Below are positions 7,851 through 21,488 of a stretch of DNA of 64,000 nucleotides, piece by piece. The stretch is from an uncultured Christensenellaceae bacterium. GTDB lineage: Bacteria; Bacillota; Clostridia; Christensenellales; Borkfalkiaceae. Position numbers and translations under genes: made by a program. The DNA is taken from contig CAJUKK010000012.1 in the NCBI GenBank assembly GCA_910586985.1, positions 5,377-69,376 of the forward strand, given 5' to 3'. The first letter of the stretch is position 1. Each line of letters opens with the position of its first letter. A model generated the notes under the pieces. It was given only the letters and a program-made list of their open reading frames with translations, was not told the DNA's origin and made no database searches.

Positions 7851-8534
7851 ATGCAAAAAAGATATATTCCGGTCGTATTCTTACTTGCGGTTCTGCTCGT
7901 GCTCTTTGCACACTTCGGAGCGAGAGTGGCGGCTCAACCCGCGTTCACCTATGCCGAAGAAGAGAAGAAAATTTATCTTACCTTCGACGACGGCCCGAGC
8001 ACCGTCGTGACGGGACGCATTCTCGATACGCTCAAAGAAAAAAACGTAAAGGCGACGTTTTTTATCGTGAGCGACCGCGCGCTCAGCCGCAGAGAAACCC
8101 TCCGCCGCATTGCGGCGGAGGGGCATACCCTCGGCGTGCACTCGGCAACGCACAATTACCGTGAAATTTACGCCTCTAAAGACGCCCTTTTAAAGGACAT
8201 TCAAACCTGTTCTTCCGTCATCGAAAAGACGACGGGCGTAACGCCGCGCGTTTACCGTTTCCCAGGCGGCGGCTGCGGTCACGCAAACGAATATTCCCCC
8301 GCCGTCCGCGAACAGGGATACCGCATTATCTCGTGGAACGCCGTATGCGGCGACGAAGAGATTTCCAACGCCAGCGCGGAAACGCTCATAAAAACCGCCA
8401 AAGAGACGGCGCAGGGGCGCTCTTCCGTCGTTATGCTGCTGCACGATTCCGCTTACCGCAAGACGACGGCGGAGGCGCTGCCCGACATTATCGAATACTT
8501 CCGCGGGCAAGGCTATACTTTTTGCGCCTTTTGA
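7851..8534 (+). CDS. Polysaccharide/peptidoglycan deacetylase (NodB domain), membrane-anchored
   Basis: N-terminal hydrophobic anchor, NodB motif YLTFDDGPS and His motif GVHSATHNY. Confidence 0.85.
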   Translation: MQKRYIPVVFLLAVLLVLFAHFGARVAAQPAFTYAEEEKKIYLTFDDGPSTVVTGRILDTLKEKNVKATFFIVSDRALSRRETLRRIAAEGHTLGVHSATHNYREIYASKDALLKDIQTCSSVIEKTTGVTPRVYRFPGGGCGHANEYSPAVREQGYRIISWNAVCGDEEISNASAETLIKTAKETAQGRSSVVMLLHDSAYRKTTAEALPDIIEYFRGQGYTFCAF

Positions 8535-11124
8535 GCTTGCCGCCCGCCGAGCGCATGATCGCTTTATAACCCTCGCCGAAGGGCACGATGGAGATTGCGA
8601 GCAAAAGCACGACCGCCCATTGCGCGCCGCCGAGCGCCGTGAGGGAGAACATCATGCGGAACGCCGGCACGAGCGGGAGCATAACGTTGAGCGCGACGCC
8701 GGCAAGCGCGGTCAATATGAGGGCGCAGTTGGAGACGAGCCCCTTAAACCCGAGCGCGTCGCGTTCCCGCCGCACGTTGAACGCATGAAACAGCTCAACA
8801 AGCGACATCAGAAGGAACGCCGCCGTCGACGCCATGCCGTTGCCCCAGCGCGGAACGGCATATACGAACAAACCGAATACGAGCGCAGTCTGTACGAGCG
8901 CGAATACGATCATATCCGCAACCGACCGCCGCGAGAAGATATCTTCCGCAGAGACGGGCGGTTTTTTCATGACCCCTTCCGAGCGCTCCACGCCCAGCGC
9001 GAGCACGGGCAGAGAGTCCGTGATGAGATTGATCCACAAAAGCTGCGTCGAGGTCAAAAATTCAAACTTCCACAGAACGAGCGTTGCAAAGAGCACCGCG
9101 AGCACTTCCGCAAGGTTGGTGCTGAGGAAGAAGGAAATCGTCTTTTTGATGCTGTAAAAGACGTTGCGCCCCTCCTCCACCGCAGTCACCATCGCCGAAA
9201 AATCGTTATTTGCAAGCACCATGTCCGCGGCGTTCTTGGTTACGTCCGTTCCCGAACCCATCGCCACGCCGATGTCCGCCGCTTTAATGCTCGGCGCGTC
9301 GTTTACGCCGTCGCCCGTCATGGCGACGACTTCGCCCTGCACCTGCAACGCCTTTACGATTTCCGACTTATGCTTGGGGGAGACGCGCGCATATACCGAA
9401 AAATCCCGCGCGCGCGCCGTGTACGCCTCCTCCCCCATTTCGTCAAGTTCCTCGCCCGTGATCACCTCTTCGCGCCGCGTTGCTATTCCCAGCCGCCCGG
9501 CAATGGCAAACGCCGTGTCCGCGCCGTCGCCCGTAATCATAACAGTGCGTATTCCCGCGCCCTTTAACCGCGCGACCGCCTCCGCCGCGCCCTCCTTGGG
9601 CGGATCGAGCATGGCGGCAAGTCCGATAAACGTGAGATTCTCCTCCTTGACCGAACCGTGAAACTCCCCTACGGCAAAGGCAAGAACGCGCATTGCCTGC
9701 GACGAAAACGCCGTTACCTGACGGTTGATACGCTCCCGCTCCTCCTCCGTAAGCGCGCGCTCGCCCGCGCCGCTCATATACCGCGCGCAACGCTTTAAAA
9801 GCACGTCCGCCGCACCCTTGACAAAGAGCCTCGTTTTGCCGTTCGCCTCGGCGGCGACGCTCATCATCTTGCGCTCGGAGGTAAAGTCTATTCCGCCGAG
9901 CACGCGGTGTTCGCTGAAAAACGCGTGCCTGTCGGCGTATTCCACAAGTGAAATCTCCGTCGGATCACCCACGTACGCGCCCGCGCCGCCCTTGACCGTA
10001 TGGCAGACGCGCATACAGGTCAGCAGCTCCTTCTGCAACGCCGTACCCGCATATTTTTCGACGCCGGCTATCGAAAAGTCCGTTTTGATCTCCTCGACCG
10101 TCATTTTATTCTGGGTAAGCGTGCCCGTCTTATCCGAGCAAATACAGGTGCAGCTGCCCAGCGTTTCGACCGAAGAGAGCTTGCGCACGACCGCTTTTGC
10201 CCGCGCCATGCGCTGTACGCCCATGGCAAGAATGATGGTTACGACCGCTCCCATTCCCTCCGGTATGGCGGCGACGGCAACGGCGACCGCCGACATGACG
10301 TTGTGCAAAAAGCTGACGCGGCGGGAGAGCAATCCGCCCAAAAACAAAATCGCCGCAACCGAAAGTACGGTGACCGTAATGATCTTCCCGAGGCGGGAGA
10401 CCGTTTTATCGAGCGGGGTCGGCACCGGTTTGGAGGAGGACAAGAGTCCCGCAATCTTTCCCATCTCCGTGTCCATACCCGTTGCAATAACCACGCACCG
10501 CGCCCGCCCGCGCATGACGAAGGTAGACATATGAAGGGTGTTTTCCCGCTCGGCGAGCGCCGTTTTTTTGACAACGCAGTCCCGCTTTTTGGCGGGAGAG
10601 GATTCCCCCGTAAGCGCGGATTCGTCTACGCGCAGATTTTCGCTCGCGAGTATCCTGCAATCGGCGGGCACGCGGTCTCCCTCTTCGAGTTCGATAACGT
10701 CGCCCACCACAAGCTCTTCCGCATCCGTTACGATCACTTTCCCGTCGCGGACGACCTTGGCAGTCGCCTTGGAGAGCGTTTTTAATTTGTCGATTGCGGA
10801 ATCGGCGCGGAATTGCTGCAAAAATCCGACGATCGCGTTCAGGAGAATGATAAAGAGAAGTATGCCCGTATCGGCAAGTTCGCTCTTGTCCCCCGTCGTA
10901 AACGCGAGCACGCCCGAAAGAAACGCCGCCGCTATGAGTATGATCGACATCAAGTCCTTGAACTGCGCAAAAAACAGCCCCACAAGGCTGTGCCTTTTTT
11001 GCTCCTTTAAAGCGTTTTTTCCGTCGTGGGAAAGGCGGCTTGCCGCTTCCTTTGCGTCAAGTCCCCGCGGAGACGAACGCACGCGGGACAGCGCCTCTTC
11101 CGCCGTTAATTGATACTGTTCCAT
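8488..11124 (-). CDS. P-type cation-transporting ATPase (Ca2+ pump-like, type II)
   Basis: TGES, phosphorylation motif CSDKTGTLTQNKM and hinge TGDGVNDAPS. Trimmed to Met25 (MEQYQLTAEEAL). Ca2+ specificity is inferred from overall architecture only. Confidence 0.88.
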   Translation of the reverse strand: MEQYQLTAEEALSRVRSSPRGLDAKEAASRLSHDGKNALKEQKRHSLVGLFFAQFKDLMSIILIAAAFLSGVLAFTTGDKSELADTGILLFIILLNAIVGFLQQFRADSAIDKLKTLSKATAKVVRDGKVIVTDAEELVVGDVIELEEGDRVPADCRILASENLRVDESALTGESSPAKKRDCVVKKTALAERENTLHMSTFVMRGRARCVVIATGMDTEMGKIAGLLSSSKPVPTPLDKTVSRLGKIITVTVLSVAAILFLGGLLSRRVSFLHNVMSAVAVAVAAIPEGMGAVVTIILAMGVQRMARAKAVVRKLSSVETLGSCTCICSDKTGTLTQNKMTVEEIKTDFSIAGVEKYAGTALQKELLTCMRVCHTVKGGAGAYVGDPTEISLVEYADRHAFFSEHRVLGGIDFTSERKMMSVAAEANGKTRLFVKGAADVLLKRCARYMSGAGERALTEEERERINRQVTAFSSQAMRVLAFAVGEFHGSVKEENLTFIGLAAMLDPPKEGAAEAVARLKGAGIRTVMITGDGADTAFAIAGRLGIATRREEVITGEELDEMGEEAYTARARDFSVYARVSPKHKSEIVKALQVQGEVVAMTGDGVNDAPSIKAADIGVAMGSGTDVTKNAADMVLANNDFSAMVTAVEEGRNVFYSIKKTISFFLSTNLAEVLAVLFATLVLWKFEFLTSTQLLWINLITDSLPVLALGVERSEGVMKKPPVSAEDIFSRRSVADMIVFALVQTALVFGLFVYAVPRWGNGMASTAAFLLMSLVELFHAFNVRRERDALGFKGLVSNCALILTALAGVALNVMLPLVPAFRMMFSLTALGGAQWAVVLLLAISIVPFGEGYKAIMRSAGGKLKRRKKYSLARGSIR

Positions 11125-11176
11125 ACCCGTATGGTATGAGCGCAGACGCGCAAATATGCCAATGCCGCGCCGCCCG

Positions 11177-11206
11177 TAAAAATAAGTCCCGCTCAATCAC
11201 GGGACT
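11177..11206 (-). terminator. Intrinsic terminator after the XRE gene at 11225
   Basis: Minus-sense GUCCCG-loop-CGGGAC hairpin followed by UUAUUUUU. Confidence 0.5.
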
Positions 11207-11224: not shown

Positions 11225-11434
11225 TCACTGCAAGAAAAGAATGTAATTTGCATCCAGATCGAGCAGACGGCATAAATTGGCAAACGTGTCGAACGCGGGC
11301 ATCTTGCACCGCCGCACGTAGCTGGAAACAGCCTGCTGACTGACACCGATCTTTTTTGCGATCTTCGTTTGACTCATTCCGCTGTGTATTATTTCTTCCG
11401 CCAACCTCTCCTGAATCTGTTCGAGCGTTACCAT
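11225..11434 (-). CDS. Small XRE-family HTH protein (type a, copy 1)
   Basis: 69 aa, a single HTH domain (MSQTKIAKKIGVSQQAVSSYV) with tail LCRLLDLDANYILFLQ. Paralog of 12476..12688. SD GAGGGGGG upstream. Confidence 0.85.
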   Translation of the reverse strand: MVTLEQIQERLAEEIIHSGMSQTKIAKKIGVSQQAVSSYVRRCKMPAFDTFANLCRLLDLDANYILFLQ

Positions 11435-11469
11435 ATCCCCCCCCTCGATAAGTTTATATTAATATTTTA

Positions 11470-11540
11470 CTATGATTGGCTGATAAAAACTTGACTAAAA
11501 CCATTGGTTGTATTATAATATCGACAACCGATAATTGTGG
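11470..11540 (+). promoter_or_regulatory. Divergent control region: consensus-like promoter with a palindrome in its spacer, plus flanking related sites
   Basis: TTGACT (11491-96), a 17-nt spacer, then TATAAT (11514-19). The perfect palindrome AACCATTGGTT (11499-11509) lies inside the spacer. Related sites are ATGATTGG (~11472) and AATTGTGG (11533-40), each about 30 bp away. Confidence 0.55.
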
Positions 11541-11577
11541 CCGCAAAATACGAAAATATTACAAAAAGAGGAAAGCT

Positions 11578-11853
11578 ATGGAACAACAGATAGGAAACTG
11601 TTCCCGTTGCATGTATTTCGACCGTTATTTTGTAAAAAAAGCGACGACTTTTCAAAGCACTTCGATCGGATGGTGCGAAGTAAAAAAAGAGATCGTAAAA
11701 TCGCGCGACAGTTGCGAGGAATGCAAAAAAAGACAGTTGCGAAGAACATCCTATCACGCGCTGATACTTCATTTGAACGACCTTTTAACGGAAATCAGCG
11801 AAGTAAAAGGTATATTAGAGGACGTCGATTATGAAAGCAGACACCTGCTTTAA
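11578..11853 (+). CDS. 4-Cys mini-protein, type A, copy 1 (zinc-ribbon-like plus C-terminal amphipathic helix)
   Basis: ORF 11476..11853 trimmed to the ATG at 11578, preceded by AAAGAGGAAAG. 91 aa with Cys at 8, 11, 33, 46 and 49, and tail LNDLLTEISEVKGILED. Paralog of 13226..13507. Confidence 0.7.
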   Translation: MEQQIGNCSRCMYFDRYFVKKATTFQSTSIGWCEVKKEIVKSRDSCEECKKRQLRRTSYHALILHLNDLLTEISEVKGILEDVDYESRHLL

Positions 11854-12067
11854 TTGCAGTTATTGCCGACGAATGTACAGACGTTTGTGGTATCGCTACA
11901 TACGCATACAAGGTTTTTACTGTACCCGATCGAAGGAAATGATCGACCGGAAAACCCCTTGCGAAAAATATAAACCGCGGGGAGAAGAATACGACCTTTC
12001 GGACGAGAGATTCGAGAAGGTCGAAAACGATATTCGGGCGATGTTGGAATATTTTAAAAAAGAATAA
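11831..12067 (+). CDS. 4-Cys mini-protein, type B, copy 1
   Basis: 78 aa, overlapping the type-A gene by 23 nt, with a GAGGA SD. Cys at 6, 9, 12, 31 and 44 (C-x12-C-E-K-Y). Helical tail ERFEKVENDIRAMLEYF. Paralog of 13479..13724. Confidence 0.65.
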   Translation: MKADTCFNCSYCRRMYRRLWYRYIRIQGFYCTRSKEMIDRKTPCEKYKPRGEEYDLSDERFEKVENDIRAMLEYFKKE

Positions 12068-12070
12068 GAA

Positions 12071-12108
12071 AGAGCGACCGGCGCGTAAACGCGCCGGTCG
12101 CTCTTTTA
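12071..12108. terminator. Bidirectional hairpin terminator
   Basis: Perfect 15-bp stem AGAGCGACCGGCGCG / CGCGCCGGTCGCTCT with a TAAA loop and a T-run, between convergent genes. Confidence 0.7.
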
Positions 12109-12309
12109 TATATCTTGGTTTAACAATTCATCTAAAGTTACCCCGTAATATTCGGCTAAAATGATACAATCTTCTACGTTCGGAATCACTTTTCCCGTCT
12201 CCCAACGACTGATGCTTGCGTTACTGATTCCCGTATCCTTTTCCACTTGTAATAAGGTTTTATTGCTAAGCAATCTTTGCGCTCTCATGGCATTGCCGAT
12301 ATTTTTCAT
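12106..12309 (-). CDS. Small XRE-family HTH protein (type b, copy 1)
   Basis: 67 aa, LLQVEKDTGISNASISRWETGKVIPNV. Same subtype as 12897..13100. Confidence 0.85.
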   Translation of the reverse strand: MKNIGNAMRAQRLLSNKTLLQVEKDTGISNASISRWETGKVIPNVEDCIILAEYYGVTLDELLNQDI

Positions 12310-12354
12310 AAGTATCCCTTTAAACTATATTGCAACGTGATAGTTTATGCTGGA

Positions 12355-12435
12355 TTTTACAGATAACGTCTGTAAAAATAAAATACCACAGACAATATCT
12401 GTAAGTCAAGCATTTTACAGATATTCCCTGTAAAA
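12355..12435. promoter_or_regulatory. Three operator-like inverted repeats between divergent HTH genes
   Basis: TTTTACAGAtaacgTCTGTAAAA (12355-77), ACAGAcaataTCTGT (12388-402) and TTTTACAGatattcCCTGTAAAA (12413-35). Confidence 0.6.
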
Positions 12436-12475
12436 TTATTTAAAAAACTTTTTCAAATTATAGGAAGAAAACGAC

Positions 12476-12688
12476 ATGATAACACTTGATCAGATACAAA
12501 TCCGCATAGCCGAAAGTATAAAGCAAAGCAACATGACACAAACCGCAATTGCAAATGCGTTGAATATTAAGCAACAAACCATCGCCTGCTATCTTGCGGG
12601 AAAAGCTATGCCCGCGCTCGACACATTGTCAAACCTTTGCAAACTTTTAGACCTCGATGCAAACTACATTCTATGCTTAACAGATTAA
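12476..12688 (+). CDS. Small XRE-family HTH protein (type a, copy 2)
   Basis: 70 aa, MTQTAIANALNIKQQTIACYL...LCKLLDLDANYILCLTD. Clear paralog of 11225..11434. Confidence 0.85.
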   Translation: MITLDQIQIRIAESIKQSNMTQTAIANALNIKQQTIACYLAGKAMPALDTLSNLCKLLDLDANYILCLTD

Positions 12689-12722
12689 AACGGGCGAGCG
12701 CAAATGCGCTCGCCCGTTTTGT
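12689..12722 (+). terminator. Intrinsic terminator
   Basis: ACGGGCGAGCGC-AAAT-GCGCTCGCCCGT followed by TTTT, immediately after the stop codon. Confidence 0.7.
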
Positions 12723-12896
12723 TAAATATTCAGAAAATAATCACAACTTAAATCCACATTTATGGACAATCCGATTTAATTGCAAATAATTTTCTACAAT
12801 TTTGCAGAATGCAAGCAAAATCAATCGGCTTTTATTATAATTCTTTTTGAGTTATCAAACTGATAATTTCCGTAATTTAAAATATCGCATTTAAAA

Positions 12897-13100
12897 TCAA
12901 TTATTTAAATCAAGGATATAGTCGGTTGTAACTCCAAAATACTGCGCCAATTTTATTAAAACCGCCACACTTGGCACTCTTTGTCCACTTTCCCAATACT
13001 GAATTGCACTTTTACTAAACCCCGTTTCTGTTGCAAGTTCGGTTATTGTCACCTTTCTTTCTTCTCGTAATTCTTTTAAGCGAACCAAGTAAACTTTCAT
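12897..13100 (-). CDS. Small XRE-family HTH protein (type b, copy 2)
   Basis: 67 aa, ITELATETGFSKSAIQYWESGQRVPSV. No SD upstream. Two TAAAAT hexamers lie directly in front of the ATG, so the mRNA may be leaderless. Confidence 0.8.
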   Translation of the reverse strand: MKVYLVRLKELREERKVTITELATETGFSKSAIQYWESGQRVPSVAVLIKLAQYFGVTTDYILDLNN

Positions 13101-13112
13101 ATTTTAATTTTA

Positions 13113-13191
13113 CCACAATTATGACAAAATAGCTTGACAAACCACCATTGTGGGTGACATGTTAACAAACACCACAATTGTGGTCTAACAA
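13113..13191. promoter_or_regulatory. Operator triplet and candidate promoter for the second Cys-protein pair
   Basis: Three related 12-mers: CCACAATTATGA (13113-24), CCACCATTGTGG (13142-53) and the perfect palindrome CCACAATTGTGG (13172-83), spaced 29 and 30 bp apart. The last lies between TTAACA (13162-67) and TAACAA (13186-91). Confidence 0.5.
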
Positions 13192-13225
13192 TTACCGCAA
13201 ATCTTAAAAAAAGAGGAAAAAAATA

Positions 13226-13507
13226 ATGGAAAACCATCCCAACAGATGCAGCAGATGTCGATTTTTCGACAGATACTACACCAAAGAAACAAAAAAGTTC
13301 CGCCGTACCGAATGCGGCTGGTGCCGGAAAAAACAAGAGCTTGTAAGCACGCACGGTGAATGCGAAAAATATTCGGCGCGTACGCGCCGATGCATGCCCC
13401 AACGCGCACTCTACCTTCAACTAAACGACCTTTTAACTGAAATTTCCGAAATCCGAAATTTTTTGGAGGACAACAAACTTGAAGGCGAAGACAACAAAAC
13501 TCTGTAA
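13226..13507 (+). CDS. 4-Cys mini-protein, type A, copy 2
   Basis: 93 aa. CSRCRFFDRYY...CGWC...C-x12-CEKY and LNDLLTEISEIRNFLED. AGAGGA SD. Confidence 0.7.
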   Translation: MENHPNRCSRCRFFDRYYTKETKKFRRTECGWCRKKQELVSTHGECEKYSARTRRCMPQRALYLQLNDLLTEISEIRNFLEDNKLEGEDNKTL

Positions 13508-13724
13508 AGACTGCAACTTCTGTAAACGGGCATACAAGAGGATCTGGTGCGAATATTACACGAAAAAACGGTATCTATGCACCCTCGGCGACCGTTTGAC
13601 CCTGCGCGAAAATTCCTGCGACAATTGGCAGAAAAAAGAGCTCGACTACGACCTATCGCAAAAAAGATTCGACGATATCGAAAAGGATATCCGCCGTCTT
13701 TTGGATCGGCTTTCTAAAATATAA
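13479..13724 (+). CDS. 4-Cys mini-protein, type B, copy 2
   Basis: 81 aa with a TTG start 8 nt after GGAGGA, overlapping the type-A gene by 29 nt. CKDCNFC...C-x12-CDNW. Tail KRFDDIEKDIRRLLDRL. Confidence 0.6.
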   Translation: MKAKTTKLCKDCNFCKRAYKRIWCEYYTKKRYLCTLGDRLTLRENSCDNWQKKELDYDLSQKRFDDIEKDIRRLLDRLSKI

Positions 13725-13754
13725 AAATTGAGCCCGCCGCAAAGCGACGGACTC
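13721..13754 (-). terminator. Intrinsic terminator of the pyr operon
   Basis: Minus-sense GAGUCCGUCGC-UUU-GCGGCGGGCUC (two G-U pairs) followed by AAUUUUUAU, 30 nt after the pyrE stop. Confidence 0.6.
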
Positions 13755-13783
13755 AAAAAATTAGGAAGTGTGTGTGAGCAATG

Positions 13784-14443
13784 TTAATATTCTGCGCCGT
13801 ACTCTTTTAAATATGCGCGCATAGCGGGGAGATATTCCTTACCCTCGATTACGCCCGCCTCGATCGCCTCGATAATGTCCTGCACGGTGACGATGGAATA
13901 TACTTTAACGCCGAAGTTATCGAGCGCCTCTTGTACGGCGGACTTTTCGCCCGTGCCTTTTTCCTGACGGTCGACGGAGATGATCATCGCCTCTACGTCT
14001 ACGTTTGCCTCCGCCTCGAGCTTGGGCAGAATTTCGCGCAGAGCTTTGCCCGAAGTCATTACGTCCTCGATAATGGCTACCTTATCCCCTTCTAAAAGCT
14101 GCTGACCGACGAACATACCGCCCTCGCCGTGATCCTTTACCTCTTTGCGGTCGAAACAGAAACCCACGTCTACCCCGTGGTTTTTTGCAAGCGCGATCGC
14201 CGTTGCAACGGCAAGCGGAATGCCCTTGTACGCCGGCCCGACGAGCGTTTTCACGTTTAATTTATGTTCGAGATAGCACTCCGCGTAATATTCGCCGAGC
14301 TGCATGATCTGCGAACCCGTTCTATACTTGCCCGCATTCATAAAATACGGCGCTTTCCTGCCGCTTTTCAGCGTAAACTCGCCAAAGAGCAGCACTTCGT
14401 TTTCCACCATGAATTTGATAAAGCGTTGTTTGTAAGTAAGCAT
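13784..14443 (-). CDS. pyrE: Orotate phosphoribosyltransferase
   Basis: 219 aa. FGEFTLKSGRKAPYFMNAG and PRPP-binding loop VAIIEDVMTSGKA. Confidence 0.92.
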   Translation of the reverse strand: MLTYKQRFIKFMVENEVLLFGEFTLKSGRKAPYFMNAGKYRTGSQIMQLGEYYAECYLEHKLNVKTLVGPAYKGIPLAVATAIALAKNHGVDVGFCFDRKEVKDHGEGGMFVGQQLLEGDKVAIIEDVMTSGKALREILPKLEAEANVDVEAMIISVDRQEKGTGEKSAVQEALDNFGVKVYSIVTVQDIIEAIEAGVIEGKEYLPAMRAYLKEYGAEY

Positions 14444-14459
14444 AACTTTTTCTCCCGTT

Positions 14460-15368
14460 TTAATTTAATCTGAGCGCGCCCGTAAGCTCGCTTATTTTTT
14501 TGACTCCGTGAAGGTCGCACCACGCGTTTAACCCCTCGATAATTCTGGGGCAGGCGAGCGTATCGGTAAAATTCTGCGTGCCCACCTGAACGGCGACCGC
14601 GCCCGCCATTAAAAATTCGATCGCATCCTCCGCGCACGTGATCCCGCCCATGCCGATCACGGGAATTTCGACTGCGTGCGCCGCCTCGTACACCATGCGC
14701 ACGGCGATCGGCTTGATCCCCGCGCCCGAAACGCCGCCCGTGTTGTTGGCGATGATCGGCTTTCTGCGCTCGATATCGATCGCCATACCCGTAAAGGTAT
14801 TTACGAGCGACAGGCAATCCGCGCCGCCCCTTTCCGCCGCGCGGGCGTTATTTGCAATGCTCTCCACGTTGGGCGAAAGCTTTACGATGAGGGGCGTTTT
14901 TTTGAGCGCCGACTTTGCGGCGTTCGTCACCTCCTCCACGCTCTCAGGCTGTATGCCGAACGCCATACCGCCGCACTTTACGTTGGGGCAGGAGATATTC
15001 AGCTCGATAAAATCGACGAGTCCGTCGAGTCGGGCGCAGATGTTTTTGTAATCTTCGAGCGTCTTTCCCGCAACGTTTGCGACGACGCGCGTTTTCGATT
15101 TCAGCCATTCGAGGTCGTTTTTAATAAAGCTCTCCACGCCCGGATTTTGCAAACCGACGGCGTTTAAGATAACCCCGCGGCTCTCCGCAATGCGCGGTAC
15201 GGGATTGCCTAGGCGAAGTTCGGGCGTAAGTCCCTTCGTCGCCACGCCGCCAAGGCAGGAAATATCGTAAATTTCGTCGAACTCGCGCCCGAATCCGAAC
15301 GTTCCCGATGCGGGAATCACGGGATTTTTTAACTCCACTCCGCAGAGCGATACGCGTAAATCAGCCAT
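14460..15368 (-). CDS. pyrD: Dihydroorotate dehydrogenase B, catalytic subunit
   Basis: 302 aa class-1B DHODase (ASGTFGFG, NISCPNV, GGI..AEDA). Adjacent to pyrK. Confidence 0.92.
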   Translation of the reverse strand: MADLRVSLCGVELKNPVIPASGTFGFGREFDEIYDISCLGGVATKGLTPELRLGNPVPRIAESRGVILNAVGLQNPGVESFIKNDLEWLKSKTRVVANVAGKTLEDYKNICARLDGLVDFIELNISCPNVKCGGMAFGIQPESVEEVTNAAKSALKKTPLIVKLSPNVESIANNARAAERGGADCLSLVNTFTGMAIDIERRKPIIANNTGGVSGAGIKPIAVRMVYEAAHAVEIPVIGMGGITCAEDAIEFLMAGAVAVQVGTQNFTDTLACPRIIEGLNAWCDLHGVKKISELTGALRLN

Positions 15369-15497
15369 AACTTCTCCTTGTATATCATGCGTTTGCTTGC
15401 CCGCCGTCTTTATAGGCGCGCGCGCTCCGCGGTCTGCGTTTGCGCGCGGAAGGCGTTTTTGAATGCAACGCTTGCAAACCCTTTCGGCTTTCCATCT

Positions 15498-16253
15498 TTA
15501 TCGGATATCCACTTCGTTGATCTCAAACACCGGCCCGTCTTTGCAGACGCGCGCGTGCGCGCCGTTCGTCCTCTCGCACACGCACACGAGGCACGCGCCG
15601 ATCCCGCAACCCATGCGCTCTTCGAGCGATACGTATACGGGAATGCCCTTGCCCTTTACCGCCTCTTTTAACGCGCGGAGCATGGGAGTGGGCCCGCAGG
15701 CGAGCACGACGTCCGGACGGAACGAATCGAAATCTTTTTCGAACGCCTCCACCGCCGTTCCGTGATAACCGACGCTCCCGTCGTCCGTGGCGATCGTAAG
15801 CGTTGCGTTTTTGCGCATTTCGTATTCCATGCAGACGGCGTTTTTGTTCCTGAATCCTATGTACGCCGCAATCTCCTTGGTTTTACCGTATTCGCGGATC
15901 GCCGAAACGAGCGGGAAAATCCCCACGCCGCCGCCCACGACGGCAACGCGCTTTTCGCCGTCCTTTACGTAAAATCCGTTGCCGAGCGGGAGCAGTACGG
16001 AGACCCTCTCCCCCGCTTTATAGTCTCTTGCAAGCGACCTCGTTCCCTCGCCCTTCAAACGGTAGCACACGGTGATGCGCTCGCCCTCCGCCTTGCAGAT
16101 TGCGATCGGACGGCGCAGAGGGCGCTGTCCCACGCCGATCATGCAAAACTGCCCGCAACGTACGGGAACCTTTTCTTCCGTGGAGAACGTGAGGCTGTAA
16201 ACCTCCTCCGCGATCTGTTTATTTTCAAGTACCAGAGCGTTTACTTCGCGCAT
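15498..16253 (-). CDS. pyrK: Dihydroorotate dehydrogenase B, electron-transfer (FAD/2Fe-2S) subunit
   Basis: Trimmed to Met16 (MREVNALV). C-terminal Cys cluster MGCGIGACLVCVC...CKDGPVF. 13-nt overlap with pyrF. Confidence 0.88.
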   Translation of the reverse strand: MREVNALVLENKQIAEEVYSLTFSTEEKVPVRCGQFCMIGVGQRPLRRPIAICKAEGERITVCYRLKGEGTRSLARDYKAGERVSVLLPLGNGFYVKDGEKRVAVVGGGVGIFPLVSAIREYGKTKEIAAYIGFRNKNAVCMEYEMRKNATLTIATDDGSVGYHGTAVEAFEKDFDSFRPDVVLACGPTPMLRALKEAVKGKGIPVYVSLEERMGCGIGACLVCVCERTNGAHARVCKDGPVFEINEVDIR

Positions 16254-17152
16254 ATTTCCCCCAAAACCGACAGAAGATCGGCTTTCATATCGAGGCACGC
16301 CTGACGCGCCGCATCGTAGTATGTTCCGCCGCGCTTGAGATAGGAGCAGAGGATTCCGCGGGAATTGTTTACGATCCCGCCGAGTCCGTTTTTATCAAAG
16401 CAGTTTTTGAGCATTTCGGCGTTCGCGCCCTGCGCGCCGTATCCGGGGACAAGGAAGAAGGTATGCGCAAGACGCGCGCGGAGCACCTTCGCCTCCTCGG
16501 GATAGGTTGCGCCTACGACCGCGCCGACCGCCGAATATCCGTATTTGCCGACGGTGTCCTCGCCCCACTTTTCCACCATGTCGCCCATGCACTCGTACAC
16601 GGCGCGCCCGTCGGCAAGTTTTAAGTTCTGAAGTTCGCCCGAGGAGGGATTGCTCGTTTTGACGAGTACGAAAATCCCTTTGTCGCGCGCTTTGCAAAGA
16701 TCGGTAAAGGGTACGATCCCGTCCGAACCGAGATATCCGTTTACCGTAAGATAGTCGCAGGGGTATGCCTCCTCCGCGTTGCCATTTACGCAGGTCTCGC
16801 CGAGAAACGCCGCGCCGTAGCGGGAGGCGGTCGCGCCGATGTCGTTGCGCTTAGCGTCGGTAATCACGATAAGTCCCTTTTCCTTCGCATATTCGCAGGT
16901 CTTTTTAAACGCCTTCATGCCCGCTCTGCCGTACTGTTCGTAATAGGCGATCTGCACTTTGACGCAGGGTACGATATCGTGTACGCTGTCGATGATCTTT
17001 TTGTTAAATTCGAGAACGGCCTTCGCCGCGCCCTTAAAGTCCTCTACGCCCTCTCTCATATCTTCGGGCAGATAGTCGAACGACGTATCCAGTCCCACCG
17101 CCGTGGGATTCTGTTTTGCGATAATTTGCTCGATAAGCGCGTCGGTGATCAT
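16241..17152 (-). CDS. pyrF: Orotidine-5-phosphate decarboxylase (long, type 2)
   Basis: 303 aa with VGLD, DAKRNDIG and operon context. Confidence 0.88.
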   Translation of the reverse strand: MITDALIEQIIAKQNPTAVGLDTSFDYLPEDMREGVEDFKGAAKAVLEFNKKIIDSVHDIVPCVKVQIAYYEQYGRAGMKAFKKTCEYAKEKGLIVITDAKRNDIGATASRYGAAFLGETCVNGNAEEAYPCDYLTVNGYLGSDGIVPFTDLCKARDKGIFVLVKTSNPSSGELQNLKLADGRAVYECMGDMVEKWGEDTVGKYGYSAVGAVVGATYPEEAKVLRARLAHTFFLVPGYGAQGANAEMLKNCFDKNGLGGIVNNSRGILCSYLKRGGTYYDAARQACLDMKADLLSVLGEICAK

Positions 17153-18414: not shown

Positions 18415-19337
18415 GCCCTTGCCTCCTGATCGTTAAGAAGTTTTAACACCGACATTCTTACGGCTACGCCCGAGAGCACCTGATCCTCGATCCGGCTGCT
18501 TGCCCCGTCGATCAGCGAACAGGTAAGCTCCACCCCGCGGTTGACGGGTCCGGGGTGCATGACGATCGCGTTCGGTTTTGCGTACTTAATCACCTCTTCG
18601 TTTACGCCGTAGAATTTCGCGTATTCGCCGAGCGAGGGAAAGAGTCCCCCGTGCTGACGCTCGAGCTGGATTCTGAGACCCATTACGACGTCCGCCCCAT
18701 CCACTGCCTCCTCGCGCGAGGCGCATACCTTTGCGCCCATCTTGTCAAAATCGGCGGGAATGAGCGTTCGGGGAGCGAACACGCTGACTTCCGCGCCCAG
18801 CTTTTTAAGACCGAACAGGTTGCTCTTGGCTACGCGGGAGTGGCGGATATCGCCTAGGATCGCAACTTTTAACCCCTTGACCGCCCCGAACGTTTCGCGC
18901 ATGGTGAGCATGTCCAAGAGCGCCTGCGTGGGGTGTTCGTTCATGCCGTCGCCCCCGTTGATCACGTGCGCCTTTACCGTTTTGCCGAGCAATTTGGGCG
19001 CGCCGCCCATGGGGTGGCGAATGATAATAAAGTCGTTCCGCATCGCATCCAGCGTCTTGCCCGTATCGACGAGCGTTTCGCCCTTTTGCACGGAGGAGGA
19101 CGCCGCCGAAATATTCACTACGTGCGCCCCGAGATATTTTGCCGCAAGTTCGAAACTGCACCGCGTCCGCGTGCTGTTTTCGTAAAAGAGCGTGGTTACC
19201 GCCCTGCCCGTTAAATCGGGCAGATTTTTTACGCCCGAGCGGAGCTTTTGTTTCATCTCCGCCGCAACGCAAAGTATCTCGTCGATCTCCTCTGCGGAGA
19301 GCTCGTAAAGTCCCGTTACGTCTTTTTGTCTCAGCAT
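18411..19337 (-). CDS. pyrB: Aspartate carbamoyltransferase catalytic subunit
   Basis: Trimmed to Met24 (MLRQKDV), preceded by AAGGAG. Motifs ENSTRTRCSFE, HPTQALLD and HPGPVNRG. Confidence 0.92.
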   Translation of the reverse strand: MLRQKDVTGLYELSAEEIDEILCVAAEMKQKLRSGVKNLPDLTGRAVTTLFYENSTRTRCSFELAAKYLGAHVVNISAASSSVQKGETLVDTGKTLDAMRNDFIIIRHPMGGAPKLLGKTVKAHVINGGDGMNEHPTQALLDMLTMRETFGAVKGLKVAILGDIRHSRVAKSNLFGLKKLGAEVSVFAPRTLIPADFDKMGAKVCASREEAVDGADVVMGLRIQLERQHGGLFPSLGEYAKFYGVNEEVIKYAKPNAIVMHPGPVNRGVELTCSLIDGASSRIEDQVLSGVAVRMSVLKLLNDQEARA

Positions 19338-20253: not shown

Positions 20254-20538
20254 TTACGGGGCGATTTTTAGGATTGCTTTGAGTTCAGAAAATTCGTTTT
20301 CCATGCGCTCGACCGCGTATTCGACGACGCGCTTGTATTTTTGCAGGGGCGAGCTCTGCTCTTCCCACTCTTCGCAGCCGTTGGGAAAGGGAAAACGGGC
20401 GTAATCTTTTTTGAGTATATTGCGCTTTAAGCACTTTCCGCAATGGGCGCTGCGCAATCTCATGCTTTCGTCAAAGTAGTAGTGTCGTAAAAAATGTTTG
20501 CACGCGGTACAGCTGTTGATTTGTTTGATTTCTTGCAT
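20254..20538 (-). CDS. 4-Cys mini-protein, type C, copy 1
   Basis: 94 aa. CTACKHFLRHYYFD...CGKC...GCEEWEE. C-terminal half identical to copy 2 apart from one residue near the end. Confidence 0.7.
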   Translation of the reverse strand: MQEIKQINSCTACKHFLRHYYFDESMRLRSAHCGKCLKRNILKKDYARFPFPNGCEEWEEQSSPLQKYKRVVEYAVERMENEFSELKAILKIAP

Positions 20539-20551
20539 ATTTACTCCTCTT

Positions 20552-20631: not shown

Positions 20632-20832
20632 ATGAATATTGGAGAAAGATTGCGGTATTTACGTTTGGGAAGAGGTTTTACACAAAAAGACGTAGCGACA
20701 GGGATAGGATTAACGGTTAGTGCATATTCAAATTATGAGAATAATCTCCGCGAACCGTCCATAGAAATTATTAAAAAACTTTGCGCCTATTATCAAGTTA
20801 CCGCAGATTATTTGTTGGGACTTGAAGATTGA
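20632..20832 (+). CDS. Small XRE-family HTH protein (type c, copy 1)
   Basis: 66 aa, FTQKDVATGIGLTVSAYSNYENNLREPS...ADYLLGLED. Confidence 0.85.
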   Translation: MNIGERLRYLRLGRGFTQKDVATGIGLTVSAYSNYENNLREPSIEIIKKLCAYYQVTADYLLGLED

Positions 20833-20915: not shown

Positions 20916-21200
20916 TTACGGGTCGATTTTTAAGATCGCTTTGAGTTCCGAAAATTCGTTTTCCATGCGCTCGACCGCGTATTCGACGACGCGCTTGTAT
21001 TTTTGCAGGGGCGAGCTCTGCTCTTCCCACTCTTCGCAGCCGTTAGGAAAGGGAAAACGGGTGTAATCTTTTTTGAGTATATTGTGCTTTAAACATTTAC
21101 CGCAACTCGCGGCCCGCAGTTTCATATTTTCGTCAAAGTAATAGTGTTGTAAAAAATATCTGCACGCGGTACAGCCGTTGTTTGTTTTATTATTCGACAT
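20916..21200 (-). CDS. 4-Cys mini-protein, type C, copy 2
   Basis: ORF trimmed to Met20 (MSNNKTNNGCTAC), preceded by AGGAG. 94 aa. Confidence 0.7.
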   Translation of the reverse strand: MSNNKTNNGCTACRYFLQHYYFDENMKLRAASCGKCLKHNILKKDYTRFPFPNGCEEWEEQSSPLQKYKRVVEYAVERMENEFSELKAILKIDP

Positions 21201-21290: not shown

Positions 21291-21488
21291 ATGTACGGCA
21301 AAATATTACGAGATTTAAGAGTTGAACGAAATTTATCACAACAACAACTTGCAGATATTTTAGGCACAACACAAAAAACTATCAGCAAATACGAATTGGA
21401 AGATTTAGATTTAAGCACTGACATGGTTGTAAGTATCTGCAAATATTTTGGTGTCACCGCAGGCTATTTATTGGGACTTGAAGATTGA
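21291..21488 (+). CDS. Small XRE-family HTH protein (type d, copy 1)
   Basis: 65 aa, LSQQQLADILGTTQKTISKYELEDLD...AGYLLGLED. Confidence 0.85.
   Translation: MYGKILRDLRVERNLSQQQLADILGTTQKTISKYELEDLDLSTDMVVSICKYFGVTAGYLLGLED

What the first reader, a model, noticed from the sequence alone, without database searches (positions are those of the whole stretch)
11225..13724. Two tandem cassettes: a small XRE repressor-like gene divergent from an overlapping pair of 4-Cys mini-protein genes
An AT-rich 2.5-kb islet lies between the P-type ATPase and pyrE. It contains five genes for 67-70 aa proteins that are nothing but an XRE-type HTH, plus two copies of a two-gene operon (11578-12067 and 13226-13724). 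Each operon encodes a 91-93 aa protein (type A) and a 78-81 aa protein (type B) whose genes overlap by 23 and 29 nt, which suggests coupled translation and perhaps a heteromer. A and B share a Cys scaffold (C-x2-C ... C-x12-C-[ED]-x-[YWC]) followed by an amphipathic helix. They have no catalytic motif, signal peptide or TM segment. Each operon is transcribed divergently from an HTH gene across roughly 125-145 bp full of palindromes. I do not recognise these Cys proteins as any named family. The divergent layout with separate promoters is not the usual type II toxin-antitoxin arrangement and resembles a CI/Cro-like genetic switch. However, no phage, integrase or transposase genes are nearby. 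Possible roles are zinc-ribbon DNA or RNA binders, anti-repressors, or effectors held off by the HTH proteins.
Basis: partly seen in the sequence, partly recalled or inferred. Interest (0 to 1): 0.78.

Follow-up and report, generated by a model that had tools for sequence, protein, structure and literature searches.

The report
Repressor-gated pair of small zinc-ribbon proteins
Two copies of a small self-contained gene module sit here, in which a tiny DNA-binding repressor appears to clamp shut a very strong promoter driving two overlapping genes for unannotated 4-cysteine mini-proteins; the module recurs in gut Clostridia (Christensenellales), and what the mini-proteins do is unknown.

Summary
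The AT-rich islet holds two overlapping gene pairs, A1/B1 (11578-12067) and A2/B2 (13226-13724). Each is divergent from a 67-69 aa XRE HTH gene. There are four HTH genes, not five, and they fall into two subtypes.

A and B are full-length paralogues. Each has a basic beta-rich 4-Cys domain (C-x2-C-x21-C-x12-C) followed by an amphipathic helix. Neither matches Pfam, NCBIfam, PHROGs, PADLOC or PDB.

The A family is real: 494 clusters at E<=1e-3. About 35 loci from Christensenellales-like genomes keep the order HTH | A-B, in different housekeeping neighbourhoods and with no mobile-element genes called.

The A promoter is near-consensus. A locus-specific palindrome fills its -35/-10 spacer, and a second copy lies about 29 bp upstream. 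Palindrome half-sites covary with the HTH recognition helix. Loci without the HTH lack the strong promoter.

A natural A-B fusion, the 14-29 nt overlap and the paralogy all point to an A/B heterodimer.

Best reading: a repressor-gated, spring-loaded operon for a zinc-ribbon heterodimer whose unrestrained expression is costly. It behaves like TA, acr-aca or cryptic-prophage modules. The effector's target is unknown.

A second islet (20254-21797) carries two singleton variants.

The parts
11225..11434 (-). X1: 69-aa XRE-type HTH repressor, divergent from A1B1
   Evidence: PF01381 E=4e-9. It is 55% identical to X3. Orthologous X-type HTH genes sit in the same position in most related loci.
11491..11533 (+). 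P_A1 promoter: TTGACT (11491-11496), 17-nt spacer, TATAAT (11514-11519). Palindrome AACCATTGGTT (11499-11509) lies in the spacer. A second palindrome TATCGACAACCGATA (11519-11533) lies just downstream.
   Evidence: The promoter scan gives an 11/12 match. The same design is seen in 25 of 38 related loci.
11578..11853 (+). A1: 91-aa protein with a basic 4-Cys beta-rich domain (C8, C11, C33, C46), the helix LNDLLTEISE and an acidic tail
   Evidence: The ORF and its Shine-Dalgarno site are. The AF2 model has pLDDT 89.8.
11831..12067 (+). B1: 78-aa paralogue of A with the same Cys spacing. It is very basic and aromatic. It overlaps A1 by 23 nt, and its Shine-Dalgarno site lies inside A1.
12068..12107 (.). 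Bidirectional intrinsic terminator between B1 and Y2
   Evidence: An 18-bp GC-rich stem with T-runs on both strands; inverted repeat I1.
12106..12309 (-). Y2: 67-aa XRE HTH of the Y subtype
   Evidence: PF01381 E=3e-14.
12355..12436 (.). Three operators of the form TTACAGA-N5-TCTGTAA (12355-12377, 12388-12404, 12412-12436), spaced about 29 bp apart, between Y2 and X3
12476..12688 (+). X3: 70-aa XRE HTH of the X subtype. It is strain-variable: this segment is replaced by a shorter one in conspecific strains.
12687..12720 (+). Stem-loop (16-nt arms, 100% complementary) directly after X3, followed by a short T-run; read as the X3 terminator
   Evidence: Inverted repeat I5 with 16-nt arms, 100% complementary. 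It is followed by TTTTGTT in the sequence. The consensus terminator scan did not list it.
12897..13100 (-). Y4: 67-aa XRE HTH of the Y subtype, divergent from A2B2
   Evidence: PF01381 E=4e-18.
13112..13184 (.). Three operators of the form ACCACAATTGTGGT (13112-13125, 13141-13154, 13171-13184), spaced 29-30 bp apart. The middle one lies directly after TTGACA (13134-13139).
13226..13507 (+). A2: 93-aa A-type protein, 45% identical to A1
13479..13724 (+). B2: 81-aa B-type protein, 36% identical to B1. It has a TTG start and overlaps A2 by 29 nt.
   Evidence: A frameshifted allele occurs in other strains.
13728..13756 (.). Terminator-like hairpin between B2 and pyrE. The scan called it on the - strand only, so it would terminate pyrE; there are A-runs on the + strand.
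20254..20538 (-). C1: 94-aa singleton A-like protein in the second islet, with no B partner
   Evidence: A-family HMM E=1.6e-9. Its promoter is TTGACA-TTACACGAAATGTGTAA-TAAAAT at 20598-20570.
20632..20832 (+). 66-aa XRE HTH divergent from C1
   Evidence: HTH HMM E=6e-16.
20916..21200 (-). C2: 94-aa singleton A-like protein, a recent duplicate of C1
   Evidence: A-family HMM E=6.5e-10. A 300-nt direct repeat at 92% identity links it to C1. Its promoter is TTGACG-TACTCTATAATAGAGTA-TATAAT at 21257-21229.
21291..21488 (+). 65-aa XRE HTH divergent from C2
21597..21797 (+). 66-aa XRE HTH, a duplicated copy (81% DNA identity) with no A-like partner

Best explanation
Each cassette is a free-standing, horizontally scattered three-gene module.

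The switch. A minimal XRE repressor of 67-70 aa, with no sensor or cleavage domain, binds two or three copies of a locus-specific 13-17 bp palindrome. One copy fills the 17-18 bp spacer between the -35 and -10 boxes of a near-consensus sigma-A-type promoter. Another lies about 29 bp upstream, over the repressor's own weaker promoter. The repressor therefore occludes RNA polymerase at the A/B promoter and autoregulates itself.

The cargo. The silenced operon encodes two translationally coupled paralogues, A and B. Each has a basic, aromatic-rich, beta-hairpin 4-Cys metal-binding domain (C-x2-C-x21-C-x12-C) followed by an amphipathic helix. A and B most likely pair through these helices into a heterodimer. 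Singleton relatives such as C1 and C2 would form homodimers.

The output. When repression lapses, the strong promoter would give a burst of A/B. From its charge and architecture, A/B most plausibly binds nucleic acid or a conserved cellular machine. Unrestrained expression appears to be costly to the cell.

Status of each step. Shown in silico: gene order, paralogy, operator placement, and covariation of operator with recognition helix. Inferred: repression, metal binding, heterodimer formation, cost of expression. Unknown: the molecular target.
For: Family and conservation:
- A profile search finds 494 clusters (E<=1e-3), 185 of them at <=1e-10. Nearly all are about 90 aa.
- The four Cys are invariant in 16 A and 17 B homologues.
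- The commonest Cys spacing is (21,12) in both families.

Paralogy of A and B:
- hhalign of A against B gives E=6e-5 across the Cys scaffold.
- The A and B HMMs hit each other's proteins reciprocally.
- MAFFT aligns B along the full length of A.

Module conservation:
- The order divergent HTH | A -> B is seen in roughly 35 distinct loci from Christensenellaceae, Christensenella, Coproplasma and 'Clostridia' MAGs and metagenomes.
- These loci sit in different housekeeping contexts, and no integrase, transposase or phage genes are among the called neighbours where genes were called.

Translational coupling:
- In 15 of 16 pairs measured, the overlap is 14-29 nt and always 2 mod 3. The SD for B lies inside A's ...IEAE codons. 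The sixteenth pair (L011) has a 209-bp gap instead.

Heterodimer:
- A natural A-B fusion, P0038 (173 aa), occurs in 5 contigs from 4 samples.

Structure and composition:
- The AF2 model of A1 with a 150-sequence MSA has pLDDT 89.8. It shows a CxxC knuckle, three beta strands and one helix spanning residues 59-90.
- The N-domains carry net charge +6 (A) and +8 (B) with 15% aromatic residues. The C-terminal part averages net negative (-2.3 in A, -0.9 in B).

Repression:
- 25 of 38 distinct upstream regions match TTGACA-N16-18-TATAAT at >=10/12 positions.
- 16 of these 25 have a perfect palindrome with >=5-bp arms in the spacer, against 12% of shuffled spacers. Most of the remainder have imperfect palindromes.
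- A second operator lies 29-30 bp upstream.
- Recognition helix and half-site covary. HQQISCY pairs with GCACC, KQPT[IV]GQY with ATAGG[CT]A, and SQQ[TS]VSHY with TACGCC.

Cost of expression:
- 0 of 5 HTH-less loci keep a strong promoter, against 25 of 33 loci with an HTH (Fisher p=0.0026).
- L051 and L052 carry the same A/B genes as L019 but have lost the HTH together with the -35 box and the operator.
- Within the window's own species there are independent frameshifts in B1 and B2 and a 25-bp deletion in A1.
Against: - There is no experimental or expression data of any kind.
- The effector has no detectable homologue of known function: Pfam, NCBIfam, PHROGs, PADLOC, the PDB sequence search and the Foldseek PDB search are all negative.
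- Only weak matches (E about 1e-2) exist, to uncharacterised phage Zn-finger models in BFVD.
- Metal binding and the identity of the metal (Zn or Fe-S) are inferred from the Cys pattern only.
- The heterodimer could not be modelled.
- The repressors have no obvious inducing signal.
- The A helix (LNDLLTEISEIR) is far more conserved than is typical for toxins or anti-defence proteins. This argues for a conserved cellular function rather than an arms-race effector.
- Five loci exist without an adjacent repressor, so A/B cannot be acutely lethal at low expression.
- The P_A2 promoter has a poor -10 box.
Confidence: 0.5

Rival explanations
1. Minimal bistable switch or anti-repressor module of the TF-smORF or CI/Cro/MOR type. 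A/B is the counter-arm of the switch. Once made, it binds and inactivates the XRE repressor, either its own or that of a resident prophage or paralogous module. This gives positive feedback and a heritable ON state, and the module's output is regulatory rather than toxic.
For: - The layout, a small C-protein/XRE-like TF divergent from a small ORF without homologues, is the one described for phage TF-smORF modules, whose smORF inactivates cI (PMC10432266).
- The window has a genuine HTH|HTH divergent pair with three operators (Y2|X3) between the two cassettes.
- Many loci carry arrays of extra XRE paralogues that could be targets.
- The repressors lack any sensor domain, so a protein antagonist is a natural inducer.
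Against: - In the TF-smORF modules the TF activates the smORF. Here the operator lies in the promoter spacer of an already near-consensus promoter, which points to repression.
- The modules are not on phages: no hits in INPHARED, PLSDB or IMG/VR.
- The most conserved A surface (LNDLLTEISEIR) stays constant while the partner HTH changes subtype (X or Y) and specificity. That is hard to reconcile with A binding its own repressor.
Confidence: 0.2
2. Three-component toxin-antitoxin system. B, which is very basic and aromatic, is the toxin. A, the upstream overlapping gene with an acidic tail, is its antitoxin. The XRE protein is a separate transcriptional regulator, as in paaR-paaA-parE or omega-epsilon-zeta (both recalled from memory).
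For: - The pair consists of two small overlapping genes with the putative antitoxin first.
- Location is patchy and variable, copy number is multiple, and composition is AT-rich.
- B1 and B2 are each frameshifted in conspecific strains while A1 and A2 remain intact in those same strains.
- Promoter strength is lost wherever the repressor is lost.
Against: - A and B are paralogues over their whole length, which is not a usual feature of TA pairs.
- Singleton A-like genes (C1, C2, P0167) have the same repressor and promoter design without any partner.
- A stable A-B fusion exists.
- Neither protein matches a known toxin or antitoxin family.
- The regulator is divergent, not co-transcribed.
Confidence: 0.15
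3. Ordinary cellular transcription factor or redox sensor. A/B would be a heterodimeric DNA-binding, or Fe-S-containing Wbl-like, regulator of distant chromosomal genes. The XRE protein would simply be its dedicated upstream regulator, with no selfish or defence role.
For: - The basic 4-Cys domain plus dimerisation helix is typical of small DNA-binding proteins.
- The A helix is very strongly conserved across about 500 clusters.
- The hosts are strict anaerobes, so an Fe-S cluster is chemically plausible (inference).
Against: - The genomic position differs in nearly every genome, and no conserved target genes are linked.
- The islets are AT-rich, are tandemly duplicated within one genome, and vary between conspecific strains with null alleles.
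- Pfam gives no hit to Whib or any DNA-binding Zn family.
Confidence: 0.1
4. Decaying remnant of a prophage or ICE immunity region with no present function.
For: - The HTH proteins resemble phage and ICE repressors: PHROG 'transcriptional regulator' families, NCBIfam phage_RstR, and the ICEBs1 Xre structure 7t8i.
- The A1 model has weak structural matches to small gut-phage Zn proteins.
- Null alleles occur.
Against: - The same three-gene unit, with intact ORFs, invariant Cys, preserved overlap register and matched operator/recognition-helix pairs, is kept in dozens of divergent genomes without any other phage gene. This indicates selection on the unit itself.
Confidence: 0.05

Closest known systems
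acr-aca operons (anti-CRISPR genes with an Aca HTH autorepressor; PMC9410906, PMC6765145)
   Same: - Small proteins without homologues are driven by a consensus, constitutively strong promoter.
- One inverted repeat (IR1) lies inside the core promoter. A similar second repeat (IR2) lies nearby.
- A small HTH protein bound to these repeats shuts the promoter off.
- Here a palindrome fills the -35/-10 spacer and a second lies about 29 bp upstream.
   Different: - aca lies downstream in the same operon and the loci sit on phages or other MGEs. Here the HTH is divergent and the module lies between housekeeping genes, with no hits in phage, plasmid or IMG/VR collections.
- A/B are basic 4-Cys proteins conserved across about 500 clusters, not fast-evolving inhibitors.
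- Anti-CRISPR activity was not tested.
Phage TF-smORF induction modules (Silpe et al. 2023, PMC10432266)
   Same: A small XRE/C-protein-like transcription factor is divergently transcribed from a small ORF that lacks homologues and predictable domains. Specificity is module-private.
   Different: - There the TF activates the smORF, and the smORF inactivates the phage cI repressor. Those modules are on linear plasmid-like phages of Vibrio and Aeromonas.
- Here the cis-architecture indicates repression, two paralogous Cys proteins are encoded, and no phage is present.
Repressor-controlled small toxic genes of cryptic prophages (DicA/DicB in Qin, RacR/YdaS-YdaT in Rac of E. coli; recalled from memory, not tested) and the Listeria cI/cro-mtz-tim locus (PMC8235301)
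   Same: An XRE-type repressor divergent from a short operon whose products are harmful or conditionally expressed. The module survives as a stand-alone chromosomal locus (for Listeria).
   Different: - Those loci retain a Cro-like second HTH gene at the head of the rightward operon and have recognisable prophage ancestry.
- Their effectors (DicB, YdaT, metzincin/TIMP) are unrelated to A/B.
Type II and tripartite toxin-antitoxin systems
   Same: Two small overlapping genes, autoregulated transcription, patchy multi-copy distribution and null alleles in strains.
   Different: - A and B are paralogues.
- The regulator is a separate divergent gene.
- Singleton versions exist.
- Neither protein matches a toxin or antitoxin family.
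Small zinc-ribbon / zinc-finger regulators such as P2 Ogr and P4 Delta (C-x2-C-x22-C-x4-C; Delta is a covalently duplicated Ogr; recalled from memory)
   Same: They are about 70-90 aa four-Cys proteins with a similar first spacing. They exist both as single units and as covalently joined double units, comparable to the A-B fusion P0038.
   Different: - hmmscan of the four window proteins (E<=1) and of 150 family members (E<=0.1) listed no Ogr_Delta match. At most 25 families were shown for the 150-member scan, and no family matched more than 2 members.
- The last Cys spacing differs (x12 against x4).
- A/B carry a long C-terminal helix.
- They are not in a phage late-gene context.

Membership tests
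XRE-family HTH (Pfam HTH_3, PF01381) for the four small regulators | Score above the Pfam gathering cutoff for HTH_3 | tested here: met
   Bit scores are 36.7, 53.3, 37.8 and 65.5 against a cutoff of 23.
Temperate-phage CI/Cro switch | Two divergent HTH genes sharing a multipartite operator | tested here: inconclusive
   This is met only for Y2|X3, which has three TTACAGA-N5-TCTGTAA sites. In the two A/B cassettes the rightward genes are Cys proteins, not HTH proteins.
Temperate-phage CI/Cro switch | Embedded in a prophage, with the repressor carrying a C-terminal oligomerisation or S24 cleavage domain | tested here: not met
   The repressors are 67-70 aa and consist of the HTH only. The flanks are the ATPase gene and the pyr operon. 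No phage genes are among the called neighbours of L001-L007 and L023-L036. There are no hits in phage collections.
Canonical type II toxin-antitoxin | Toxin or antitoxin belongs to a recognised TA superfamily | tested here: not met
   A and B have no significant hit in Pfam, NCBIfam or PADLOC.
Canonical type II toxin-antitoxin | Two adjacent co-transcribed small genes | tested here: met
   The genes overlap by 14-29 nt in 15 of 16 loci examined, with an SD for B inside A.
Canonical type II toxin-antitoxin | Toxicity of one partner, neutralised by the other through direct binding | not testable with these tools
   This needs expression experiments.
acr-aca operon | An HTH-bound inverted repeat inside the core of a strong promoter | tested here: met
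   In silico only. 25 of 38 promoters match at >=10/12, with a palindrome in the spacer. Half-sites covary with the recognition helix.
acr-aca operon | aca downstream of acr in the same operon, on a phage or other MGE | tested here: not met
   The HTH is divergent and the contexts are housekeeping genes. Phage and plasmid collections give no hits.
TF-smORF module (Silpe 2023) | The TF activates the divergent smORF, and the smORF inactivates a phage cI repressor | not testable with these tools
   Operator position argues for repression rather than activation. No phage cI is present in the window.
Zinc-ribbon fold | Metal ligands on beta-hairpin knuckles, with structural similarity to solved zinc ribbons | tested here: inconclusive
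   AF2 places C8/C11 in a knuckle and C33/C46 at strand ends. Foldseek against PDB has a best E of 1.3. BFVD hits to phage 'zinc finger / zinc-ribbon' models have E about 1e-2 and TM 0.4-0.5.
Ogr/Delta zinc finger (PF04606) and WhiB-like Fe-S proteins (PF02467) | Match to the family profile | tested here: not met
   Neither family was listed for A1, A2, B1 or B2 at E<=1. Neither was among the families shown for the 150 A-family members at E<=0.1 (25 of 51 families were shown, and no family matched more than 2 members).

The most novel reading that the evidence does not exclude
The XRE | zinc-ribbon-helix units are a previously undescribed class of free-standing chromosomal 'transcriptional addiction' or abortive-infection modules in gut Clostridia.

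In this reading a short-lived minimal repressor with a private operator code holds a consensus promoter shut. Any shut-off of host gene expression, for example by phage infection, would then release a burst of a novel heterodimeric metal-binding protein that arrests a conserved cellular machine.

The modules diversify by tandem duplication into mutually orthogonal copies. There are four within 10 kb in this window.
Probability: 0.25. Interest if true: 0.75.

Novelty: new variant of a known kind. Interest (0 to 1): 0.58.

Why it matters
The A/B proteins define a sizeable protein family that matches nothing in the annotation libraries searched. The A profile alone finds about 500 clusters at 50% identity. 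The family occurs in Christensenellales-like gut bacteria, a group with few genetic tools and much interest for host health.

The regulatory part can be read almost completely from sequence. It consists of a minimal repressor, private palindromic operators placed inside a consensus promoter, and a visible recognition-helix/half-site code. This gives three practical openings:
- A set of naturally orthogonal repressor/operator pairs that could be used as parts in anaerobic Firmicutes.
- A simple experimental handle on an unknown effector: remove the repressor, or express A/B.
- A test case for whether repressor-gated small-protein modules outside phages act as addiction, defence or switch elements.

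If A/B proves to be an ordinary small regulator, the finding reduces to a new DUF-type family with a neat promoter architecture.

Tried and rejected
Homology searches, all negative:
- Pfam, NCBIfam, PHROGs and PADLOC on A1, A2, B1 and B2 gave nothing significant. The best hits were MRNIP at E=0.012 and PHROGs at E>0.02.
- Pfam on 150 family members gave only scattered single hits.
- PDB sequence searches with the A and B profiles gave nothing. A Kunitz-domain match at E=0.72 was judged to be chance, because these are intracellular proteins with a different Cys count.
- Foldseek of the confident A1 model against PDB gave nothing.

Structure prediction:
- The first AF2 run, with 16 sequences, gave an unusable N-domain (pLDDT<50). 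It was rescued with a 150-sequence MSA.
- Aligning A and B rows to the natural fusion failed, because MAFFT stacks B on the A half.

Mobile-element origin:
- tblastn of a family member against 50,697 phage records and 72,556 plasmid records gave no match.
- A pattern scan of IMG/VR gave none.
- No integrase or transposase is among the genes called around L001-L007 and L023-L036. Neighbours in the remaining loci were checked only with the A, B and HTH profiles.

Other ideas considered:
- RNA elements: Rfam gave only sub-threshold hits on terminators.
- RiPP or bacteriocin precursor: rejected, because there are no modifying enzymes or transporters nearby, the proteins are about 90 aa and hydrophilic, and there is no leader-like region.
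- Literature string search for the family motifs: no paper found.

Full report
**What is in the window**

The segment 11225-13724 is an AT-rich islet. Its GC is 0.32-0.46, against 0.55-0.62 in the flanks. It lies between a P-type ATPase gene (8488-11196, -) and pyrE (13784-14443, -), the last gene of a pyr operon.

It contains eight short genes:
- X1: 11225-11434 (-)
- A1: 11578-11853 (+)
- B1: 11831-12067 (+)
- Y2: 12106-12309 (-)
- X3: 12476-12688 (+)
- Y4: 12897-13100 (-)
- A2: 13226-13507 (+)
- B2: 13479-13724 (+)

Two points need correcting:
- There are four XRE HTH genes, not five. All four pass the HTH_3 cutoff, and an HMM scan of every ORF >=30 aa finds no fifth in the islet.
- The HTH genes fall into two subtypes. 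X1 and X3 are 55% identical. Y2 and Y4 form another group, only 15-23% identical to X1.

The layout is therefore X1|A1B1, then a separate HTH|HTH pair Y2|X3, then Y4|A2B2. It is not two equivalent repeats. A GC-rich bidirectional terminator (12068-12107) closes the A1B1 unit. A hairpin with a short T-run follows X3 (12687-12720). A terminator-like hairpin lies between B2 and pyrE (13728-13756).

**The A and B proteins**

None of A1, A2, B1 and B2 has a significant match in Pfam, NCBIfam, PHROGs or PADLOC.

- A word-indexed search found 17 A clusters and about 12 B clusters.
- An exhaustive profile search with 16 A sequences found 494 clusters at 50% identity with E<=1e-3. Of these, 185 were at <=1e-10. 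Nearly all are about 90 aa.
- None of 150 members tested hits a Pfam family consistently.

A proteins keep C8, C11, C33 and C46 invariant. They also keep an R-Y-Y-T-K strand, G-W-C, and a strikingly constant helix LNDLLTEISEIR, followed by an acidic tail. B proteins keep C6, C9, C31 and C44.

The commonest Cys spacing is the same in both families: C-x2-C-x21-C-x12-C. Three results show that A and B are paralogues along their whole length:
- Profile-profile comparison gives E=6e-5 over the scaffold.
- The A and B HMMs hit each other's proteins reciprocally.
- MAFFT aligns B over the full length of A.

With a 150-sequence alignment AlphaFold2 gives a confident A1 model (pLDDT 89.8). It has a CxxC knuckle, three beta strands (residues 14-20, 25-33, 38-41) and one long helix (59-90).

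- Foldseek finds nothing in the PDB; the best E is 1.3.
- In BFVD it finds only weak matches, with E about 1e-2 and TM 0.4-0.5 over about 52 columns. These are to uncharacterised small 'zinc finger / zinc-ribbon' proteins of gut phages.
- The N-domains are strongly basic (mean net +6 for A, +8 for B) and 15% aromatic. The C-terminal parts average net negative.
- There is no hydrophobic segment.

**Evidence that A and B work together**

- In 15 of 16 loci the B start lies 14-29 nt inside A. The overlap is always 2 mod 3, and B's Shine-Dalgarno site is formed by A's ...IEAE codons.
- A natural in-frame A-B fusion, P0038 (173 aa), occurs in five contigs from four independent samples, again next to a divergent HTH.
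- Singleton A-like genes also exist (see the second islet below). The ancestral state was therefore probably a homodimer.
- I could not model the complex.

**The module is conserved and moves around**

Loci were collected from GTDB genomes, ENA/Logan contigs and JGI metagenomes. After annotation with my own A, B and HTH profiles, they show the same unit in about 35 distinct places: a divergent HTH followed by A -> B.

The named hosts are Christensenellaceae, Christensenella, Candidatus Coproplasma and unclassified Clostridia/Eubacteriales MAGs.

The neighbours differ from genome to genome: tilS/cmk, thiamine pyrophosphokinase, nrdR, gap/glyS, and the pyr operon here. Where neighbouring genes were called, no integrase, transposase or phage gene is among them. 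For the other loci I checked only the A, B and HTH profiles. No family member was found in 50,697 phage records, 72,556 plasmids or IMG/VR (the IMG/VR scan is pattern-limited).

**The regulatory design**

This is the strongest result. In 25 of 38 distinct upstream regions the A promoter matches TTGACA-N16-18-TATAAT at 10-12 of 12 positions.

- In 16 of those 25, the spacer holds a perfect palindrome with arms of >=5 bp. Only 12% of shuffled spacers do.
- Most of the rest carry an imperfect palindrome around a CATTGG, CAATGG or CATTAG core.
- A second copy of the same palindrome lies 29-30 bp upstream. There it overlaps a weaker promoter (good -10 box, poor -35 box) facing the HTH gene.

The palindrome differs between loci and tracks the HTH recognition helix:
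- K/RHQQISCY goes with GCACCC...GGTGC (L001, L015).
- KQPT[IV]GQY goes with ATAGG[CT]ATTGCCTAT (L002, L020).
- SQQ[TS]VSHY goes with TACGCC...GGCGTA (L005, L011).
- [RK]QSQISCY goes with TATA[CT]C[CT]A[AT]TAGATATA (L014, L019).

In the window:
- P_A1 is TTGACT-AAAACCATTGGTTGTAT-TATAAT at 11491-11519, an 11/12 match.
- The Y4|A2 spacer carries three ACCACAATTGTGGT sites at 29-30 bp intervals.
- The Y2|X3 spacer carries three TTACAGA-N5-TCTGTAA sites.

A repressor dimer sitting between the -35 and -10 boxes of a consensus promoter is the classic way to occlude RNA polymerase. The same IR1-in-core-promoter plus IR2 design is documented for Aca repressors of anti-CRISPR operons (PMC9410906).

**Signs that unrestrained A/B expression is costly**

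- Five loci lack the adjacent HTH, and none of them keeps a strong promoter. The comparison is 0/5 against 25/33, Fisher p=0.0026.
- L051 and L052 carry the same A/B genes as L019. They have lost the HTH gene together with the -35 box and the operator, and keep only the -10 box.
- Among strains of the window's own species:
  - B1 is frameshifted in two contigs.
  - B2 is frameshifted at an A-run in three contigs, and this allele is on record in 20 contigs.
  - A1 has a 25-bp deletion between direct repeats in another allele.
  - The X3 segment is an indel.
  - In all these strains the HTH genes X1, Y2 and Y4 stay intact.

These observations are suggestive, not proof. The existence of repressor-less loci also shows that low-level A/B is tolerated.

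**A second islet in the same window**

At 20254-21797 (GC about 0.39-0.44) lie two singleton A-like genes, each divergent from an XRE HTH gene. A third, partnerless HTH gene also lies there:
- C1 is 20254-20538 (-), divergent from the HTH at 20632-20832.
- C2 is 20916-21200 (-), divergent from the HTH at 21291-21488.
- The third HTH is 21597-21797.

Their promoters follow the same rule: TTGACA-TTACACGAAATGTGTAA-TAAAAT for C1 and TTGACG-TACTCTATAATAGAGTA-TATAAT for C2. The units arose by tandem duplication:
- One 300-nt repeat at 92% identity includes the 5' end of the neighbouring phosphoesterase gene.
- One 249-nt repeat at 81% identity is also present.

The window therefore holds four modules of this kind within 10 kb, on both sides of the pyr operon.

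**Interpretation**

I commit to the following reading. Each unit is a repressor-gated, 'spring-loaded' operon. Its product is a metal-binding zinc-ribbon/helix dimer: A/B heterodimers here, homodimers for singletons. The dimer acts on nucleic acid or a conserved cellular machine, and its free expression is disadvantageous.

My confidence by part:
- The regulatory half: about 0.85.
- The heterodimer: about 0.7.
- Metal binding: about 0.75.
- A 'costly effector' role: about 0.5.
- The target is unknown.

The main rivals are:
- An anti-repressor or bistable-switch role, analogous to phage TF-smORF modules (PMC10432266).
- A tripartite TA system with B as the toxin.
- An ordinary cellular regulator or Fe-S sensor.
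- A functionless prophage remnant.

The constancy of the A helix, set against the changing HTH subtype and specificity, argues against A binding its own repressor. Paralogy, the singletons and the fusion argue against a classical TA pair. Scattered locations, duplications and null alleles argue against a core housekeeping regulator. Preservation of ORFs, overlap register and matched operator/helix pairs across dozens of genomes argues against mere decay.

**Novelty and score**

The regulatory logic has known analogues: acr-aca operons, TF-smORF modules, DicA/DicB-like loci and C-protein controllers. The effector family matched nothing in the libraries and literature I could search. The three-gene unit, as a free-standing chromosomal element in Christensenellales-like genomes, also matched nothing there.

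I rate it a new variant of a known kind, with interest 0.58. It is well defined and testable, and the sequence-readable repressor/operator code is attractive. However, the key question, what A/B does, remains open.

Noticed in passing
window 20254-21797: A second AT-rich islet holds two singleton A-like 4-Cys genes (C1, C2), each divergent from an XRE HTH gene. A third, partnerless HTH gene is also present. The promoters follow the same operator-in-spacer design.
   Followed up: yes
window 20169-20468 / 20831-21130 and 21236-21484 / 21542-21790: Tandem duplications generated the second islet: one 300-nt repeat at 92% identity and one 249-nt repeat at 81% identity. The first repeat carries a copy of the 5' end of the metallophosphoesterase gene (19508-20209), leaving a truncated pseudo-start at about 20830-20870.
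   Followed up: partly
window 13784-19406: The pyr operon (pyrE, pyrD, pyrK ... pyrB, all on the - strand) is bracketed by the two islets of XRE/Cys-protein modules. This may be coincidence. No link to pyrimidine metabolism was seen in other genomes.
   Followed up: partly
window 12349-12760 versus L029, L031, L032, L033: Strain polymorphism. The triple operator plus X3 plus its terminator (about 400 bp) is replaced in other strains of the same species by a different segment of about 160 bp. That segment has one operator copy and another terminator.
   Followed up: yes
window 11707-11746; 13655-13662; L032/L033 4254-4489: Null alleles in conspecific strains. A1 has a 25-bp deletion between the direct repeats GACAGTTGCGA(G/A)GAA (allele P0006). 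B2 has a frameshift at the A6 run (P0018, on record in 20 contigs). B1 has a 1-nt frameshift (L032, L033).
   Followed up: partly
window 11831-11853 and 13479-13507, and 13 other loci: The A/B overlap is always 2 mod 3. A's acidic tail codons (GAA/GAC...) are read as B's Lys-rich N-terminus (AAG/ACA...). Part of each protein's end composition may therefore be a by-product of the overlap.
   Followed up: partly
L001 4539-5407; L002 504-1829; L021 3722-4159; L045 291-719: Arrays of 142-147 aa proteins made of two tandem XRE HTH domains, plus extra tandem X-type HTH genes, sit next to the A/B module in several genomes. Their role is unknown.
   Followed up: no
window 11519-11541: Downstream of the P_A1 -10 box lies a sequence (ACAACCGATAATTGTGG) that resembles a half-site of the Y4-type operator ACCACAATTGTGGT. 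This could mean cross-regulation between the two cassettes, or a recombination scar.
   Followed up: no
window 41966-48477: Four consecutive genes encode FtsX-like permease-domain proteins (380-477 aa, - strand). One gene between them was not examined. The stretch is lower in GC (0.41-0.43).
   Followed up: partly
window 25413-27421: At least three adjacent ORFs on the - strand (158, 198 and 194 aa) have no Pfam match. They lie in a low-GC segment (0.40-0.47).
   Followed up: no
A-family profile versus PDB (4dtg_K): The best PDB sequence match is a Kunitz domain, at E=0.72, through the shared pattern RY.Y....K.F....G.C. It was judged to be chance.
   Followed up: partly
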